64,000 nt of DNA from the human T2T-CHM13v2.0 reference genome, Homo sapiens. The DNA is taken from assembly GCF_009914755.1 (NCBI RefSeq), contig NC_060936.1. The stretch is one strand, 5' to 3'. This document shows, piece after piece, positions 36,231-42,207 of this stretch. Under the pieces are notes generated by a model, which was not told the origin of the DNA, searched no databases, and saw only the letters and a program-made list of their open reading frames with translations. The position numbers and the translations under genes were made by a program. Within the stretch, counting starts at the first letter, position 1. Each line of letters begins with the position of its first letter.

Positions 36231-36923
36231 AGGCTATTTTTATCGTAAGGAACAGGAAAGCACTTAAACTAATTCAACTGAAATCAAGGAATAAGAAATG
36301 AAATATAGCATCCTCAGGAGAGAAACCAGGAACTGAATTGTTGGAATCCAGGCACATGTGCCATCTCCCAGGAGCTACTGAATCTATCTTACAGCATCCT
36401 GTCTGTTTCTCTGTGCACATTTTTCCTTCTCTACACAGTGCAGACTGATCTCAGCTTTCTTCAGTTCCCTTCTACCTCTCACTATTTCCGACTCTGGACC
36501 TTTCTACACTCCAGCCTTTCCATAGGAAGTACTCCGGGTTAGTTTTTCTGTGTCCTAGTGCCATGTTCCTGGGAGAAGAACTGGATCAACTGAGCTTAGA
36601 TCCAGTGTTCATCCATGGTCCAGTGATTTGTGACCAGGATGTGAGACTGGACAAATGACATAAACATGGCTCCAGGCCCACCGTTTCAGCCCTGTATGGG
36701 GATGATTCCTAGAGAGAGGGCCTTCAGGAGAGCAGACACCCCAAAACATATGAGCTGCAAGCACCTAGCTTAAGTAGGAGCACAACAAATATTAGCTTCC
36801 ATCCCTCCCCACTCTCCTAATTCTAGAAGAGCAGGTTTCCATAAGGAGCCCATACACAAGCACAATTGTTCTATATTTTTACCTTTGCTTGGGCTATACC
36901 TCTTATTAAGAATATCCTATTTT

Positions 36924-36995
36924 CACCCAAGTACTAACCAGGCCTGACCCTGCTTAGCTTCTCAGATCAGACAACATCAGGTGCGTTCAGAGTGG
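36924..36995 (-). pseudogene. 5S rRNA pseudogene fragment (nt ~14-85), antisense to and fused with the SET retrocopy
   Basis: The reverse complement ccactctgaacgcacctgatgttgtctgatctgagaagctaagcagggtcaggcctggttagtacttgggtg aligns ungapped to recalled human 5S rRNA at about 63/72, with most mismatches at CpGs. Confidence 0.93.
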
Positions 36996-39160
36996 ATGAA
37001 AATCCTTACTTTGAAAGTAAAGTTCTCTCCAAAGAATTCCATCTGAATGAGAGTGGTGATCTATCTTCAAATTCCACCGAAATCAAATGGAAATCTGGAA
37101 AGGATTTGATGAAACGTTCAAGTCAAATGCAGAAGAAAGCCAGCAGAAAGAGACAGCATGAAGAACCAGAGAGCTTCTTTACCTGGTTTACTGACCATTC
37201 TGATGTAGGGGCTGATGAGTTAGGAGAGGTCATCACAGATGATATCTGGCCAAAACCATTACAGTACTACTTGGTTCCCGATATGGATGACGAAGAAGGA
37301 GAAGGAGCAGAAGATGATGATGATGATGATGAAGATGAGGAAGGATTAGAAGATATTGATGAAGAAGGGGGTGAGGATGAAGGTGAAGAAGATGAAAATG
37401 ATGATGAAGGGAAGGAAGGAGAGGAGGATGAAGGAGAAGATGACTAATAGAACACTGATGGATTCCAACCTTCTCTTTTAAAAATTTTCTCCAGTCCCTG
37501 GGAGCAAGTTGCAGTGGTTTTTTTTTTTTTTCCTCCTGTGCTCAGTCGCCCTGTTCTTGAGATCTCTTTTCTCAACTTATTTTAGGGGAAATACCTTGAG
37601 CAGAATACAATGGGAAGAGTCTCTACCTCTTTCTGTTCGAAATTCATTTTTATTGCTTACTATCTGAATAAAAACTGTATGGAATCAACACTACTGAGCT
37701 CTGTGGGAAAAAAGAAAAACCTGCTCCCTTCGCTCTGCTGGAAGCTGGAGGGTGCTAGGCCGCTGTGTAGTAGTGCGTATAATTCTAGCTTTTTTCTTCC
37801 CTTCTCTGTATGTTGGGCTCAGAGAGTACACTGTGTCTCTATGTGAATATGGACAGTTAGCATTTACCAACATATATCTGTCTACTTTCTCTTGTTTAAA
37901 AAAAAAGAAACTTTAAAAAATGGGGTTATAAAACGTCAGCAAAGGGTGGGTTTGAGATGTTTGGGTGGGTTAAGTGGGCATTTTGACAACATGGCTTCTC
38001 CTTTGGCATGTTTAATTGTGACATTTGACAGATATCCTTGCTGTTTAAGATGACACTTTTAAAATAAATTCTCTCCTAATGATGACTTGAGCCCTGCCAC
38101 TCAATGGGAGAATCAGCAGAACCTGTAGGATCTTATTTGGAATTGACATTCTCTATTGTAATTTTGTTCCATTTATTTTTAAATTTTCTTTTTGTTTCAC
38201 TGGAAAGGAAAGATGATGCTCAGTTTCAAACATTAAAAGTGTGCAAGTTGCTTTGTTACAGTAAAACTAAATGTGTACACAAAAGATTTGATGCTTTTCT
38301 CTCAGCATAGGTATGCTTCCAATGACCTTCCAAGTTTGACTTGTATAACATCACTTTCAAACTTTGTCACTCTAACTTCATATTTTTTGATATGCACTTT
38401 GGAGGATGACCTCAGGGTTATGTGAACTGAGTAACGGGATTAGAATCAATGTACTAATATCTCCATAGCTGGGAAACATGGGTAAAATTTGCCATTGTTT
38501 TCTGAAATTATTCACATCATTTGAGATACCGGATTGCTCAATACTTTCTGAGTATATTGTGCCCTTGATTTTTATCTCCAAGTGGTAGTTTTTAAAATTG
38601 GCCTTTTACCTGGATATAAAATAATAGTGCCTGCCACCACCATCCAACAGACCTGGTGCTCTAATGCCAAGTTATACATGGGACAGTTGCTGGCACGTCT
38701 TCATTGGCTATATAAAATGTGGCCAAGAAGACAGGCTCTCAGAGTAAGAAGTCTGTGGTGGTTAGCAGTAACTTTCCCTACTCTCTGGTATAAAGCTCTC
38801 AAATGTGACTATGTGAATCTGGGTGGAATAATGGACTCAGCTCTGTCTGCTCAATGCTATTGTGCAGAGAAGTACCTTAATGCATAAGCTTTTTAATGCT
38901 GTAAAATACAGTAGCTGAAATTAAATGCCACTTTTTCAGAGGTGAATTAATGGACAGTCTGGTGAAATTCAAAAGGTTTTTGATGTATAGAACTTGATGA
39001 ATGGAACTATTCCATCAATAGGCAAAAGTGTCACAACCTATCTAGATGGATAGTATGTAATTTCTGCACAGGTCTCTGTTTAGTAAATACATCACTGTAT
39101 ACTGATCAGGAATCTTGCTCCAGTAAAGGAACATAAAGACTTTTTTTTGGAAAAAGAAAA
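36995..39160 (+). pseudogene. SET: 5'-truncated processed pseudogene of SET (TAF-I/I2PP2A histone chaperone): C-terminal half of CDS, ~1.7 kb 3' UTR, degraded A-tail
   Basis: ORF 36992-37447 reads [22 protein letters not shown]...[11 protein letters not shown]...[16 protein letters not shown]...EGEDD*, matching the SET NAP-domain C-terminus and acidic tail with no introns. It is followed by SET-like 3' UTR, a decayed polyA signal (cagtaaag ~39121), an A-rich tail 39151-39160, and TSD aagaatatcctatt at 36908-36921 and 39161-39174. Confidence 0.96.
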
Positions 39161-39175
39161 AAGAATATCCTATTA

Positions 39176-39478
<303 letters not shown>

Positions 39479-39490
39479 CTATTTCCTATT

Positions 39491-39536
39491 CCATCCATCC
39501 ATCCATCCATCCATCCATCCATCCATCCATCCATCC
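39491..39536 (+). repeat. (CCAT)n tetranucleotide STR
   Basis: About 11 units, seen directly. Confidence 0.95.
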
Positions 39537-42207
39537 TTTCATCTCTGTCTTTTTTCCTATCCTGGAAGACCCACTTCCTCCAGGAAATCTTCCTTATATC
39601 CTCAATATCTTCAGCTACCCTTCATCTCCCTCATTTCTGTCAATTCATTAGAGTCTATAACACACAATTTAGCACTAAGTTACACAACTTAGGTTTTTCT
39701 CTTAATCACTTTGAAGATGTTGTTGTTTCAACTGGATTATAGATTTATTCAGAACAGAGAGTGCCACAGTGCCAAGCACAAAGAGGAACAAAGAGTGTTC
39801 AATGAACAAAGAAAATTACAGAACAACAAACATTTTATATCTAGAAAGGATCTCAAAAATAATGAAGTTTAATCTGCTTGATTTCAGAAGAAGAACTGAG
39901 GTTAATACAGAAGAAACATCCTTGGCTGATGAAATAGAAAGAATAAAATGGAGATTCAATATTATATTTACATGTAAAATATGTTTTATATATTTATAAA
40001 AATTACATATTATTTATGTAACAGAAGAATTTTCCCCCATCATACTGTGGAATGGTAGTTGGAGGATCATGATACGTTCAAGCTGGGAGGGAACTTAGAA
40101 GTGACGTAAGACATGCAATTTAAGTTTGTAGATGAGAAAACTTCCTCCTAGGAAAAGGAAAAGATTTGTCCAAGATCACCCAAGTTTTTAGTAGTAAAGC
40201 TGGGACTAGGATCCACACCTCCTTCTTCTCACTCCTATGATTATTTTCCACACTCCACTGTCACCAAATCCTTGCTTTAAGCTTCCATTCCTCACTAGAC
40301 CATGCATCTGACATTAGGGCTCATTTGTCCCTCACAGTTTTAGTTCTATATCATTTATCCTTAACCATTCCATGCACCATTTTCCTTTTCAGCTTCTTCT
40401 TTCTGCTATCCATTTGTATTTACCTCTGCTTACTTTGTCCTTGATCTGTGGACTACACAGTTTGCCCTGTCTCCTTGGCTATAACCTTGATTCTGCTCCT
40501 CACCTCTGCCTTGGTGTAAATACCTTTCCCAGTTCAGCCTGGTCTCAGCACTGGGTGTCGCCTACTCTTGACTAATTCATGCATTGATTTAACACACATT
40601 TACTGTGCATGTCTTCTGTGAAAGTTTCTGAATGAAGAACACTTAGTATCTACTCAATATGCTCACAATCTATTGGTGAGAGAGGGATTTTAAAACAATA
40701 TGGTAAGTGTGTTCATCTCAGAGCTTTATTCCTATGGGAGACCCAAACTGAGTAAGGAATGGTGGGAAGGTGACAATCAGGGAAGACTTCCTGGACGTGT
40801 TCTCTGAAATGAGGCATTAGGACAGATCAGTGGATATGCATTAGCTGATGGGGCAGTGGAGTGGAGGTGAATGAGGATGCAGACAGAAAAAAATAACTTA
40901 AAAAAAGGCATAAAAACATAAAATAGCAAGGGGTACAAAAGAATGACTAGCACCCTGATGTTCTTCAAGGATAAAAAGGAAGGCAGGTGGTAGTGTGGGC
41001 TAAGCCTGGCGAGATGGGTGAACCACATTGGGAAGGCCTTGTCTTCCAGTTGGGAACTTGATCTGTTGGGATTTAGGGAGCTAATAAGTGACATCCCTGT
41101 TCCCTGCCTGAATTATTAATTGAGAGGAACCCCAAGGAGTCAGGCAGATAGAGGTTAAAATGTCAGCTTTACTACTGATAAAACAATAAGCATGGCTTAG
41201 ATTTGGCCAAATTGCTTGCTAACACTTCCAGTACTGAACTTAATTCCCAAAATCCAGGCCTCTCCTACAGGGGCCAATAGGTTTAGAGCTGATGATAATG
41301 CTTTACAAGCATCTGGCCCTGAGAGAGGGGAGTGGGGGCGGGGTGGGGGAGAGAGAGCTGAGCCAGCTCACCTCCTTATCTTAAATTTACCAAGCAGATA
41401 AATCACTCCTCCTCTGGGGAGAGAGGGCAGAAGTGTTACCCTAATGGTGGTCCCTCCACTTGGAACATGAAGCAAGAGGGGAAGGAAGTTCCTACCTAAT
41501 ACATATCCACCTCTTACTGAGTACCTACTGCACACTGCCATGCAGAAGGCCCTGGTTCCACAAGCTGGAACCAGACAGAATCAGAATTAGGCTGGGAAGA
41601 TTCTCTAACAGGGTAGGTAAAAAGACATGGGAGCCCTTTGTACCCAGTACTTGCTGTTCACGAGAAAAGGACAGAGCTCTTAACGTGAAGAATTTTTAGA
41701 AACAGCATTGTGTATACCCAGAACTCCTCAGAGATAGTCTCACTTCTAATATCACCCAGACACTGTTCTTTCATCAGAAAGGCCTCTCTTTGGCATAATG
41801 TTTATCCTGACTAAACCAATATGACCATCTGCCCCTCCTCACAATGGTTGTTATTGAGGTGAGAACACAAATACAACCTTGTCACAGCCCATAATGGCAG
41901 GGAACATACCTGCTACTGGGGTATGTTCTCCTCTTAGGGAAAGAGGATGGGCAAGGTGGCACTATTAAGCAGGTGTTGACATTAAGAACCTTTAAAAAGC
42001 ACCTCTTCTTTCCCTACCTTCTATTTTAGCATTTTCTTGAAAATTTCTTGCCTCCTTTTGTAGAACCCTAGAATGTTAGGACTGAAAGAAACCCATTGAA
42101 TCTGCTTCTCCACCTGTGCTTGAGAATAGCTTCAGCATCTTCTCCCTGCAAAATGGCCATTTGTCCTCTGCTTGGATGTGTCATTGACAAGAAACTCACT
42201 ATCTCTC

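What the first reader, a model, noticed from the sequence alone, without database searches (positions are those of the whole stretch)
36908..39174. Chimeric retrocopy: antisense internal 5S rRNA fragment fused to a truncated SET mRNA inside one TSD (candidate twin priming in trans)
Seen: the order is TT|aagaatatcctatt (36908-36921), 72 nt of reverse-complemented 5S rRNA (nt ~85 to 14), a junction at a shared G (36995), SET cDNA from ...DENPYF through the 3' UTR and A-tail, then aagaatatcctatt (39161-39174). The 5S piece has no A-tail or TSD of its own. Established: L1 TPRT makes TSDs at TT/AAGA-like sites. The familiar small-RNA chimeras (U6-L1 type) carry the small RNA in the same orientation, generally from its 5' end. 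5' inversions arise by twin priming on the same RNA. Inference: here the second-strand 3' OH primed reverse transcription on a different RNA (5S, plausibly ribosome-associated with the L1 RNP), and the two cDNAs were joined. Separate annotation as a 5S pseudogene and a SET pseudogene would hide this single event.
Basis: partly seen in the sequence, partly recalled or inferred. Interest (0 to 1): 0.82.

Follow-up and report, generated by a model that had tools for sequence, protein, structure and literature searches.

The report
Backwards 5S piece on SET retrocopy
A dead retrocopy of the SET messenger RNA on human chromosome 12 carries a backwards 72-base piece of 5S ribosomal RNA at its front end, apparently from one insertion event, and chimeras of this kind have already been described.

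Summary
AAGAATATCCTATT occurs at 36908-36921 and 39161-39174. Between the two copies lie two unassigned T, 72 nt of antisense 5S rRNA (nt 85 to 14; 36924-36995), a 5'-truncated intronless SET cDNA (36995-39151, ending at the parent gene's poly(A) site) and a 9-nt A-tail.

- **Age:** the two parts have compatible non-CpG divergence, 3/60 for 5S and 99/2120 for SET.
- **Uniqueness:** no other locus among those scored in this genome spans the 5S/SET junction.
- **No own TSD:** the 5S piece has no target-site duplication of its own, unlike 11 of 15 stand-alone 3'-truncated 5S copies I sampled.

A single L1-mediated event, with the second-strand end priming on 5S RNA (twin priming on a second RNA), is the best reading.

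The idea is not new. Law & Burns (2026) list 27 5S/LINE-1 chimeras, 23 of them antisense and many truncated near nt 90, and propose twin priming. Doucet et al. (2015) proposed the same model for snRNAs. The only difference here is that the partner is an mRNA retrocopy rather than LINE-1.

That Alu looks older, so one nick site was used twice. Primate orthologues could not be checked.

The parts
36906..36911 (+). L1-endonuclease-type first-strand nick site, TT|AAGA, read in the orientation of the SET part
   Evidence: Sequence read. The TSD begins at 36908, directly after TT.
36908..36921 (.). Upstream copy of the target-site duplication, AAGAATATCCTATT
   Evidence: (family D4): 3 matches against 0.02 expected.
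36922..36923 (.). Two T that belong to neither the TSD nor 5S. They may be non-templated or primer/template overlap.
   Evidence: The register comparison shows the 5S match ending at nt 85 (36924). The TSD ends at 36921.
36924..36995 (-). 5S rRNA fragment, nt 14-85, antisense to the SET part. It lacks nt 1-13 and nt 86-121, and has no A-tail and no TSD of its own.
   Evidence: 63/72 identical to a chr1 5S gene. Searches show no TSD of its own.
36995..39151 (+). 5'-truncated processed copy of SET mRNA. It starts 7 nt inside an exon (DENPYF...) and runs through the stop codon (37445-37447) and the full 3' UTR to the natural poly(A) site. RefSeq SETP7 covers only 36995-37644.
39152..39160 (+). 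Short A-rich tail, 9 nt
   Evidence: the parent gene continues with unrelated sequence after the aligned end.
39161..39174 (.). Second copy of the TSD, 14/14. It is the downstream copy for the 5S+SET insert and the upstream copy for the Alu.
39175..39469 (+). AluS-like element with an internal deletion of about 20 nt and an A-rich tail. It is a separate and probably older insertion at the same site.
   Evidence: (SRP-type hit, + strand): non-CpG divergence 27/220 against 99/2120 for SET.
39470..39483 (.). Third copy of the TSD, AAGAATATACTATT (13/14), downstream of the Alu

Best explanation
One L1-mediated retrotransposition event made the whole 36922-39160 insert.

1. **First-strand nick (shown):** L1 endonuclease nicked the bottom strand at TT|AAGA.
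2. **First cDNA (shown):** the poly(A) end of a spliced SET mRNA was reverse transcribed from that nick, up to a point 7 nt inside an internal exon.
3. **Second nick (shown):** the top strand was cut 14 nt downstream, which produced the TSD.
4. **Priming on 5S (inferred):** the free top-strand 3' end (...CCTATT, T-rich) annealed to a 5S rRNA molecule at or beside loop D, near nt 86-89. It primed a second cDNA that ran towards the 5S 5' end.
5. **Joining (inferred):** the 3' ends of the two cDNAs were joined at minimal overlap, namely G36995, or GATG against 5S antisense nt 14-10 if one base is skipped. Fill-in and ligation completed the insert.

The product is TSD, antisense 5S (85 to 14), sense SET, A-tail, TSD. 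It is a non-functional insertion scar.

The same nick site had probably been used earlier by the adjacent Alu. That would explain the third TSD copy.
For: **Single event.**
- A 14/14 TSD flanks 5S and SET together.
- The 5S piece has no TSD or tail of its own.
- I sampled 19 dispersed 5S copies, and 15 of them are 3'-truncated: 14 end at nt 88-91 and 1 at a nominal nt 98. Of those 15, 11 have a direct TSD of 10 nt or more at their own ends. A further chr3 copy shows the same. None of the 15 has a distant TSD mate like the window's.
- Of the 40 hits scored out of 539 candidates, none except the window itself spans the junction. No source locus or RNA-level chimera is therefore seen.
- Non-CpG divergence is 3/60 (5.0%) for 5S and 99/2120 (4.67%) for SET, Fisher p = 0.76. 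Divergence at CpG sites is 6/12 against 13/38, p = 0.50.

**Retrocopy hallmarks.**
- The exons are contiguous, the copy ends at the parent's poly(A) site, and an A-tail and a TT|AAGA site are present.

**Orientation and polarity.**
- The 3'-truncated end of 5S abuts the upstream TSD, and the piece reads antisense towards its 5' end. Top-strand priming predicts exactly this.

**Class precedent.**
- Table S2 of Law & Burns lists 27 5S/LINE-1 chimeras. By my count of the strand columns 23 are antisense, and 10 of those end at nt 89-102.
- One of them, 5S:13-89 on an L1PA10, is almost the same piece as here.
- The authors propose twin priming. Doucet et al. 2015 give the same model for U5, U1, U2 and U6.

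**Priming spot.**
- Stand-alone 5S copies overwhelmingly end at nt 88-91, and their TSD 3' ends overlap the 5S antisense TCT. This region therefore looks like the preferred internal priming site for target DNA ends.

**Cis comparator.**
- SET mRNA can also undergo classical twin priming on its own RNA. A chr2 retrocopy has an inverted 5' segment inside a 16-nt TSD.
Against: - No orthologous empty or filled sites could be examined, so joint arrival is inferred rather than shown.
- The age test has little power for 72 nt. With 3/60, a two- to three-fold age difference cannot be excluded.
- There is no clean Watson-Crick overlap between the TSD 3' end and 5S at the priming junction. Two T are unassigned, and pairing of TTTT with G86 G87 A88 G89 would be mostly G-T wobble.
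- The 5S piece lacks nt 1-13, whereas Law & Burns say the 5S start is commonly at the junction. Their table does show starts from nt 1 to nt 50.
- A single locus cannot separate priming on 5S RNA from ligation of a pre-made 5S cDNA fragment in the orientation seen here.
- The published class has LINE-1 as partner, not an mRNA.
Confidence: 0.72

Rival explanations
1. Single event, but the 5S piece is filler. A free 5S cDNA fragment, made elsewhere by reverse transcriptase, was captured by end joining between the upstream target end and the 5' end of the SET cDNA. Its orientation is then a matter of chance.
For: - The overlaps at both 5S junctions are minimal: two unassigned T on one side and 1 nt on the other.
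- The piece is truncated at both ends.
Against: - In the published 5S/LINE-1 set, 23 of 27 are antisense. Random-orientation capture does not predict that bias.
- The end next to the TSD lies at nt 85. That is within a few bases of nt 88-91, where 14 of 19 sampled dispersed 5S copies end and where target ends overlap 5S. This points to priming from the target end.
Confidence: 0.15
2. Two separate events. A SET retrocopy inserted first. Later a tailless 3'-truncated 5S retrocopy inserted on the opposite strand exactly at the boundary between the TSD and SET, without duplication or with a small target deletion.
For: - Stand-alone 3'-truncated 5S retrocopies are common: 15 of 19 sampled dispersed copies.
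- The flanks of the 5S piece share a weak 12-of-15 similarity, GAATATCC-TATTTT against GAAAATCCTTACTTT.
Against: - The left flank of the 5S piece is 14/14 identical to the copy after the SET tail and 13/14 to the copy after the Alu. It is therefore target sequence and not a duplicated piece of SET.
- The right flank matches the SET parent base for base.
- The insertion would have had to land within 0-2 nt of the TSD boundary in a 2.2-kb element.
- The weak flank similarity is unremarkable under a looser null (P about 0.10).
- 11 of 15 stand-alone truncated copies carry clear direct TSDs.
Confidence: 0.06
3. Template switch or RNA-level chimera. Either the reverse transcriptase jumped from SET mRNA to an antisense 5S template, or a ligated or spliced hybrid RNA was retrotransposed, as in U6/L1 chimeras.
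For: Template switching and RtcB ligation are established routes to small-RNA/L1 chimeras (passages seen).
Against: - Those routes give both parts in the same orientation (Law & Burns Fig. 7 legend; Doucet section 6). Here the parts are opposed, so an antisense 5S template would be needed, and none is known to me.
- No other genomic copy of the junction was found.
Confidence: 0.03

Closest known systems
Antisense 5S rRNA/LINE-1 chimeric insertions (Law & Burns, Cell Genomics 2026, PMC13174262; bioRxiv 2025)
   Same: - The 5S fragment is antisense to the poly(A)-bearing partner and sits at the partner's 5' end.
- It is 3'-truncated near loop D (about nt 90), next to the upstream TSD.
- One TSD of 7-17 nt and an EN-type site enclose the whole insert.
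- Twin priming is the proposed mechanism.
- Table S2 has a near-identical piece, 5S:13-89 with an L1PA10.
   Different: - The partner here is a trans-mobilised cellular mRNA (SET) and not LINE-1. That study searched only upstream of LINE-1 elements.
- The 5S piece ends at nt 85 rather than nt 89-102.
Inverse snRNA/L1 and snRNA/SVA chimeras explained by twin priming on a different RNA (Doucet et al., Mol Biol Evol 2015, PMC4476161)
   Same: - The small RNA is 3'-truncated and in the opposite orientation, between the TSDs.
- The cleavage site fits the EN consensus only in the orientation of the retrotransposon part.
- The model is top-strand priming inside the small RNA, in a loop.
   Different: - The small RNAs there are U5, U1, U2 and U6, and the partners are L1 or SVA.
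- Those authors report complementarity between the small RNA and the insertion site. Here such complementarity is weak.
Classical twin priming (5' inversion) on one RNA (Ostertag & Kazazian 2001; seen only as cited and described)
   Same: - Two reverse transcriptions start from the two ends of the staggered break.
- The inverted 5' segment lies inside one TSD.
- The cDNA ends are joined at microhomology.
- A SET retrocopy of this classical kind exists on chr2.
   Different: The inverted segment here comes from another RNA species, not from an upstream part of the same transcript.
U6/L1-type chimeras (template switching or RtcB RNA ligation)
   Same: A small Pol III RNA lies at the 5' end of a 5'-truncated retrocopy within one TSD.
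   Different: In those chimeras U6 is full-length and in the same orientation as the partner. Here 5S is truncated at both ends and antisense.
Tailless, 3'-truncated small-RNA retropseudogenes (Schmitz et al. 2004, as described in Kojima 2010, PMC2912911)
   Same: - The truncation region of 5S is the same. In my sample 14 of 19 dispersed copies end at nt 88-91.
- There is no A-tail.
- A T-rich target end abuts the truncated end.
   Different: Those copies stand alone with their own direct TSD (11 of 15). The window piece has none and shares the TSD of the SET retrocopy.

Membership tests
Antisense small-RNA/retrocopy chimera made by twin priming (5S/LINE-1 class) | Small-RNA segment at the 5' end of a poly(A)-bearing retrocopy, in the opposite orientation | tested here: met
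   5S lies on the minus strand at 36924-36995 and directly abuts SET on the plus strand from 36995.
Antisense small-RNA/retrocopy chimera made by twin priming (5S/LINE-1 class) | One target-site duplication encloses both parts, and the small RNA has none of its own | tested here: met
   The 14/14 TSD lies at 36908-36921 and 39161-39174. The best repeat of the 5S left flank is that 14-mer, 2165 nt away.
Antisense small-RNA/retrocopy chimera made by twin priming (5S/LINE-1 class) | Endonuclease-type cleavage site in the orientation of the poly(A)-bearing part | tested here: met
   TT|AAGA at 36906-36911.
Antisense small-RNA/retrocopy chimera made by twin priming (5S/LINE-1 class) | The small RNA is 3'-truncated in a loop (5S: about nt 46 or 90), with that end next to the upstream TSD | tested here: met
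   The 5S piece ends at nt 85, two bases from the TSD. Published antisense cases end at nt 89-102 in 10 of 23. Dispersed copies end at nt 88-91 in 14 of 19.
Antisense small-RNA/retrocopy chimera made by twin priming (5S/LINE-1 class) | Both parts arrive together in orthologous alignments | not testable with these tools
   No primate genomes are held. As a proxy, the divergences are compatible: 3/60 against 99/2120, p = 0.76.
Antisense small-RNA/retrocopy chimera made by twin priming (5S/LINE-1 class) | The partner is a LINE-1 element, as the published catalogues are defined | tested here: not met
   The partner is spliced SET mRNA, with four contiguous exons of the chr9 gene.
Processed pseudogene (L1-mediated mRNA retrocopy) | Intronless copy of a spliced mRNA that ends at the poly(A) site, with an A-tail and a TSD | tested here: met
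   Identity to the parent exons is 92.9-95.4%.
Stand-alone tailless 5S retropseudogene | Own direct TSD immediately flanking the 5S fragment | tested here: not met
   The flanks share only a 12-of-15 similarity with a gap (score 8). The null P ranges from 0.02 to 0.10 depending on the control used. The left flank is the 14/14 copy of the distant TSD.
U6/L1-type template-switch or ligation chimera | Small RNA in the same orientation as the partner | tested here: not met
   The orientations are opposite.
Classical (cis) twin priming | The inverted segment derives from the same RNA as the sense segment | tested here: not met
   The inverted segment is 5S rRNA and the sense segment is SET.

The most novel reading that the evidence does not exclude
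Capture of 5S rRNA by the free top-strand end does not depend on LINE-1 RNA being the primary template. It also happens when L1 proteins mobilise a cellular mRNA in trans. It uses the same loop-D priming spot that produces the abundant stand-alone 3'-truncated 5S retrocopies. 5S capture would then be a general side reaction of any L1-made staggered break.

In addition, the SET truncation point may have been set by annealing of the 14-nt target overhang to the first-strand cDNA. The evidence is a 12-of-15 match in register with the start of the TSD.
Probability: 0.3. Interest if true: 0.4.

Novelty: new member of a known kind. Interest (0 to 1): 0.24.

Why it matters
**Annotation.** RefSeq lists only SETP7, at 36995-37644. 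The real insert is one 2.24-kb event that also holds a 5S fragment and 1.5 kb more of the SET 3' UTR.

**Mechanism.** The locus extends a published class, the antisense 5S/LINE-1 chimeras, to an mRNA partner. This fits the view that the second-strand end at an L1 integration site can prime on abundant bystander RNAs whatever the primary template is.

The finding does not open a new question. The mechanism and the 5S orientation bias are already in print.

Tried and rejected
- **Buzdin et al. 2003.** This is the original catalogue of chimeric retrogenes, said by others to include 5S and mRNA partners. It is not held. I could not check whether a 5S/mRNA chimera, or this locus, is listed there.
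- **Literature on this locus.**
  - A search for SETP7 found 12 papers. The 10 listed are phage papers, GWAS and other unrelated studies by their titles, and I opened none of them.
  - Searches on twin priming, 5S and chimeric retrogenes turned up no paper on an antisense 5S/processed-pseudogene chimera.
- **Law & Burns supplements.** I saw only part 1 of 3 of Table S3 and part 1 of 5 of Table S2, which holds the whole 5S sheet. Their PDF supplements are not readable here.
- **Genome-wide scan.**
  - The Rfam 5S family search of the genome returned only the chr1 tandem array: 47 hits scored out of many candidates.
  - The pattern search found 411 matches but lists only 100, mostly from the array.
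  - I could therefore sample only the 19 dispersed copies among the listed rows. That sample is biased towards copies intact over nt 49-82, and none of the 15 truncated ones resembles the window.
- **cmscan on seven dispersed 5S loci.** It gave global alignments that hide truncation, so it was not useful.
- **Lenient local aligner.** It over-extended several 5S boundaries into the flanks, so I used the blastn boundaries.
- **Exon border.** I asked whether the SET 5' end sits at an exon border, which would have hinted at an RNA-processing origin. It lies 7 nt inside the exon.
- **One complex event for Alu plus SET.** I rejected this because a TSD copy separates the two elements and their divergences differ.
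Full report
**What is there**

Reading 36700-39600 and the repeat search give the following order on the + strand:

| Element | Window coordinates |
|---|---|
| TT, then AAGAATATCCTATT (TSD copy 1) | TSD 36908-36921 |
| Two unassigned T | 36922-36923 |
| Antisense 5S rRNA, 72 nt | 36924-36995 |
| SET cDNA | 36995-39151 |
| A-rich tail, 9 nt | 39152-39160 |
| AAGAATATCCTATT (TSD copy 2) | 39161-39174 |
| AluS-like element with A-tail | 39175-39469 |
| AAGAATATACTATT (TSD copy 3, 13/14) | 39470-39483 |

With up to one mismatch the 14-mer occurs three times in the 64-kb window against 0.02 expected. None of 100 shuffles reached three.

**The 5S piece**

- Rfam finds 5S_rRNA on the minus strand at 33.6 bits, E 2.7e-4. 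That is below the gathering score because the piece is partial.
- The window's own genome is searchable. The piece matches the chr1 5S tandem array at 88% over 72 nt.
- Aligned to one array gene (L028), it is 5S nt 14-85 with 63/72 identities.
- Of the nine mismatches, six fall on the 12 CpG positions, and five of those are CpG-type transitions. Three fall on the 60 other positions. This count is mine, made from the alignment printed.
- Beyond nt 85 there is no 5S similarity.

**The SET part**

- It aligns to four consecutive exons of the chr9 SET gene, with introns precisely absent: 36995-37103, 37101-37275, 37273-37424 and 37422-39151, at 92.9-95.4% identity.
- It is closer to the parent (93%) than to other SET retrocopies (90% or less).
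- Its 5' end lies 7 nt inside an exon, not at a splice border.
- Its 3' end coincides with the parent's end, about 20 nt after AATAAA. After that point the parent continues with unrelated sequence.
- The remaining reading frame encodes the C-terminal 150 residues of SET, starting DENPYF, and matches Pfam NAP at E 4.7e-9.
- RefSeq's SETP7 (36995-37644) therefore covers less than a third of the retrocopy.

**One event or two?**

1. The TSD pair encloses 5S and SET together.
2. The 5S piece has no duplication of its own. The best repeat of its left flank is the 14-mer 2165 nt downstream, right after the A-tail.
3. As a control I fetched every dispersed (non-array) copy among the 100 rows listed for a 34-nt 5S pattern: 17 exact and 2 one-mismatch matches out of 411 matches in all.
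   - 14 of the 19 end at nt 88-91, one at a nominal nt 98, and four reach nt 117-121.
   - Of the 15 truncated copies, 11 have a direct TSD of 10 nt or more at their own two ends. Often the TSD 3' end overlaps the antisense TCT of 5S nt 90-88.
   - The other four have no clear TSD. None has a distant mate like the window's.
   - A further chr3 copy, seen, is again a stand-alone copy with a 17-nt direct TSD.
4. None of the 40 hits scored out of 539 candidates, apart from the window itself, spans the 5S/SET junction. No source locus for a pre-formed chimera is seen.
5. The ages are compatible.
   - Non-CpG divergence is 3/60 (5.0%) for 5S and 99/2120 (4.67%) for SET, Fisher p = 0.76.
   - Divergence at CpG positions is 6/12 against 13/38, p = 0.50.
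   - The blocks overlap by 3 nt at each of the three junctions, so about 9 positions are counted twice.
   - The power for 72 nt is low.

**Mechanism**

The polarity is the informative feature. The end of the 5S piece next to the upstream TSD is its 3'-truncated end (nt 85), and the + strand then reads antisense 5S towards nt 14.

This is what results if the top-strand 3' OH left by second-strand cleavage primes reverse transcription inside 5S RNA. The bottom-strand nick meanwhile primes on the SET poly(A) tail.

To obtain the same product, a template switch from SET mRNA would need an antisense 5S template.

The two cDNAs meet at G36995. If 5S A13 is skipped, SET GATG matches 5S antisense nt 14-10.

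The priming junction is not clean. Two T are unassigned. The TTTT at 36920-36923 could pair with G86 G87 A88 G89 only through one A-T pair and three G-T wobbles. That pairing is my inference.

The position agrees with the stand-alone copies, which almost all end at nt 88-91 with target/5S overlap. It also agrees with loop D as named by Law & Burns.

**What is already known**

- **Doucet et al. 2015** (PMC4476161; passages, section 6 in full).
  - They describe 3'-truncated U5, U1, U2 and U6 copies in inverse orientation to L1 or SVA inside one TSD.
  - The EN consensus is seen only in the L1 orientation.
  - Their model is top-strand priming on the snRNA, which they call twin priming.
- **Law & Burns 2026** (PMC13174262; abstract and outline, passages, section 18, Table S2 part 1 with the whole 5S sheet, Table S3 part 1).
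  - They state that 5S in 5S/LINE-1 chimeras is typically antisense and truncated at positions 46 and 90.
  - 20 of their 27 have TSDs of 7-17 bp.
  - They take the antisense bias to indicate twin priming.
  - In their table I count 23 of 27 antisense. Twelve of those end at nt 40-50, ten at nt 89-102 and one at nt 80. The 5' starts run from nt 1 to nt 50.
  - One entry, 5S:13-89 on an L1PA10, is practically the piece seen here.
- **Moldovan et al. 2019** (PMC6789731; passages) mention 3'-truncated 5S conjoined to L1s or to other cellular RNAs, citing older work that I could not read.
- **A cis comparator in this genome.** A SET retrocopy on chr2 has an inverted 5' segment inside a 16-nt TSD.

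The new element is only that the partner is a trans-mobilised mRNA.

**The third TSD copy and the Alu**

The Alu is flanked by the second and third copies of the same 14-mer, so the same site was used twice.

- Against a majority consensus of 17 Alus from this window, the Alu shows 27/220 (12.3%) non-CpG differences. It is the second most diverged of the 17, compared with 4.67% for SET (Fisher p = 2.4e-5).
- A few of those mismatches lie beside its internal 20-nt deletion and may be alignment artefacts. By my reading of the printed alignment the excess remains roughly twofold. I did not compute that separately.
- The consensus is local and mixes subfamilies, so this is a rough estimate.

If the Alu came first, both events used the canonical TT|AAGA nick. 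If SET came first, the Alu would have had to nick AA|AAGA inside the SET tail. TSD copies 1 and 2 are identical while copy 3 differs. That pattern fits the Alu-first order but does not prove it.

Independent Alu insertions at an identical site with TSDs of the same size are documented in NF1 (Wimmer et al. 2011, PMC3219598; passages).

**An unexplained detail**

The target copy plus two T (GAATATCCTATTTT) resembles the first bases of the SET copy (GAAAATCCTTACTTT). There are 12 matches in 15 columns, in register with the start of the TSD.

| Control | Result |
|---|---|
| Random window pairs | P about 0.02 |
| Shuffles of the left flank | P about 0.03 |
| Overlapping positions of the SET copy that reach the score | 4 of 2137 |
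| Looser null | P about 0.10 |

I found this post hoc. It may be chance, or it may mean that annealing of the overhang to the first-strand cDNA fixed the truncation point.

**Verdict**

The finding is real, correctly described and correctly interpreted. It is a new example of a known kind rather than a new mechanism. The decisive orthologue test could not be run here.

Noticed in passing
window 39161-39174, 39175-39469, 39470-39483: The adjacent AluS-like element is flanked by the same 14-mer (13/14 for the third copy). One TT|AAGA site therefore received two independent insertions with TSDs of the same length. By non-CpG divergence the Alu looks about twice as old as the SET copy.
   Followed up: partly
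window 37645-39160: RefSeq SETP7 stops at 37644, but the homology to the SET 3' UTR continues to 39151 and is followed by the A-tail. The annotated pseudogene is about 1.5 kb too short, and the 5S piece is not annotated at all.
   Followed up: yes
L049 (G000:C2:155935200-155937300): A SET retrocopy on chr2 shows a classical 5' inversion. Its antisense segment corresponds to positions 697 down to 244 of the window's SET copy (counted from 36995) and is joined to a sense segment covering 702-1290. An A-tail and a 16-nt TSD (AAGAAACAGAGAGGTG) complete it.
   Followed up: yes
L030-L048 and L050 (dispersed 5S copies): 14 of 19 sampled dispersed 5S copies end at nt 88-91. 11 of the 15 truncated copies have direct TSDs, and the 3' end of the TSD often overlaps the antisense TCT of 5S nt 90-88. 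This marks a sharply preferred internal priming spot.
   Followed up: partly
window 36910-36923 versus 36998-37012: The target-site copy resembles the first 15 nt of the SET copy (12/15 with one gap), in register with the start of the TSD. The empirical P ranges from 0.02 to 0.10 depending on the null used.
   Followed up: partly
one search hit table (other SET retrocopies): Many SET retrocopies in the genome end at query position about 1286-1292, which corresponds to window position about 38282. SET therefore seems to have a proximal poly(A) site as well as the distal one used here.
   Followed up: no
window 39489-39535: A (TCCA)n-type microsatellite starts a few bases after the third TSD copy.
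   Followed up: no
window 39360-39419 and several fetched loci: The Rfam hits to mir-3135, mir-1268 and Metazoa_SRP all lie inside Alu elements and fall below the gathering scores. They reflect Alu sequence and not separate RNA genes.
   Followed up: no
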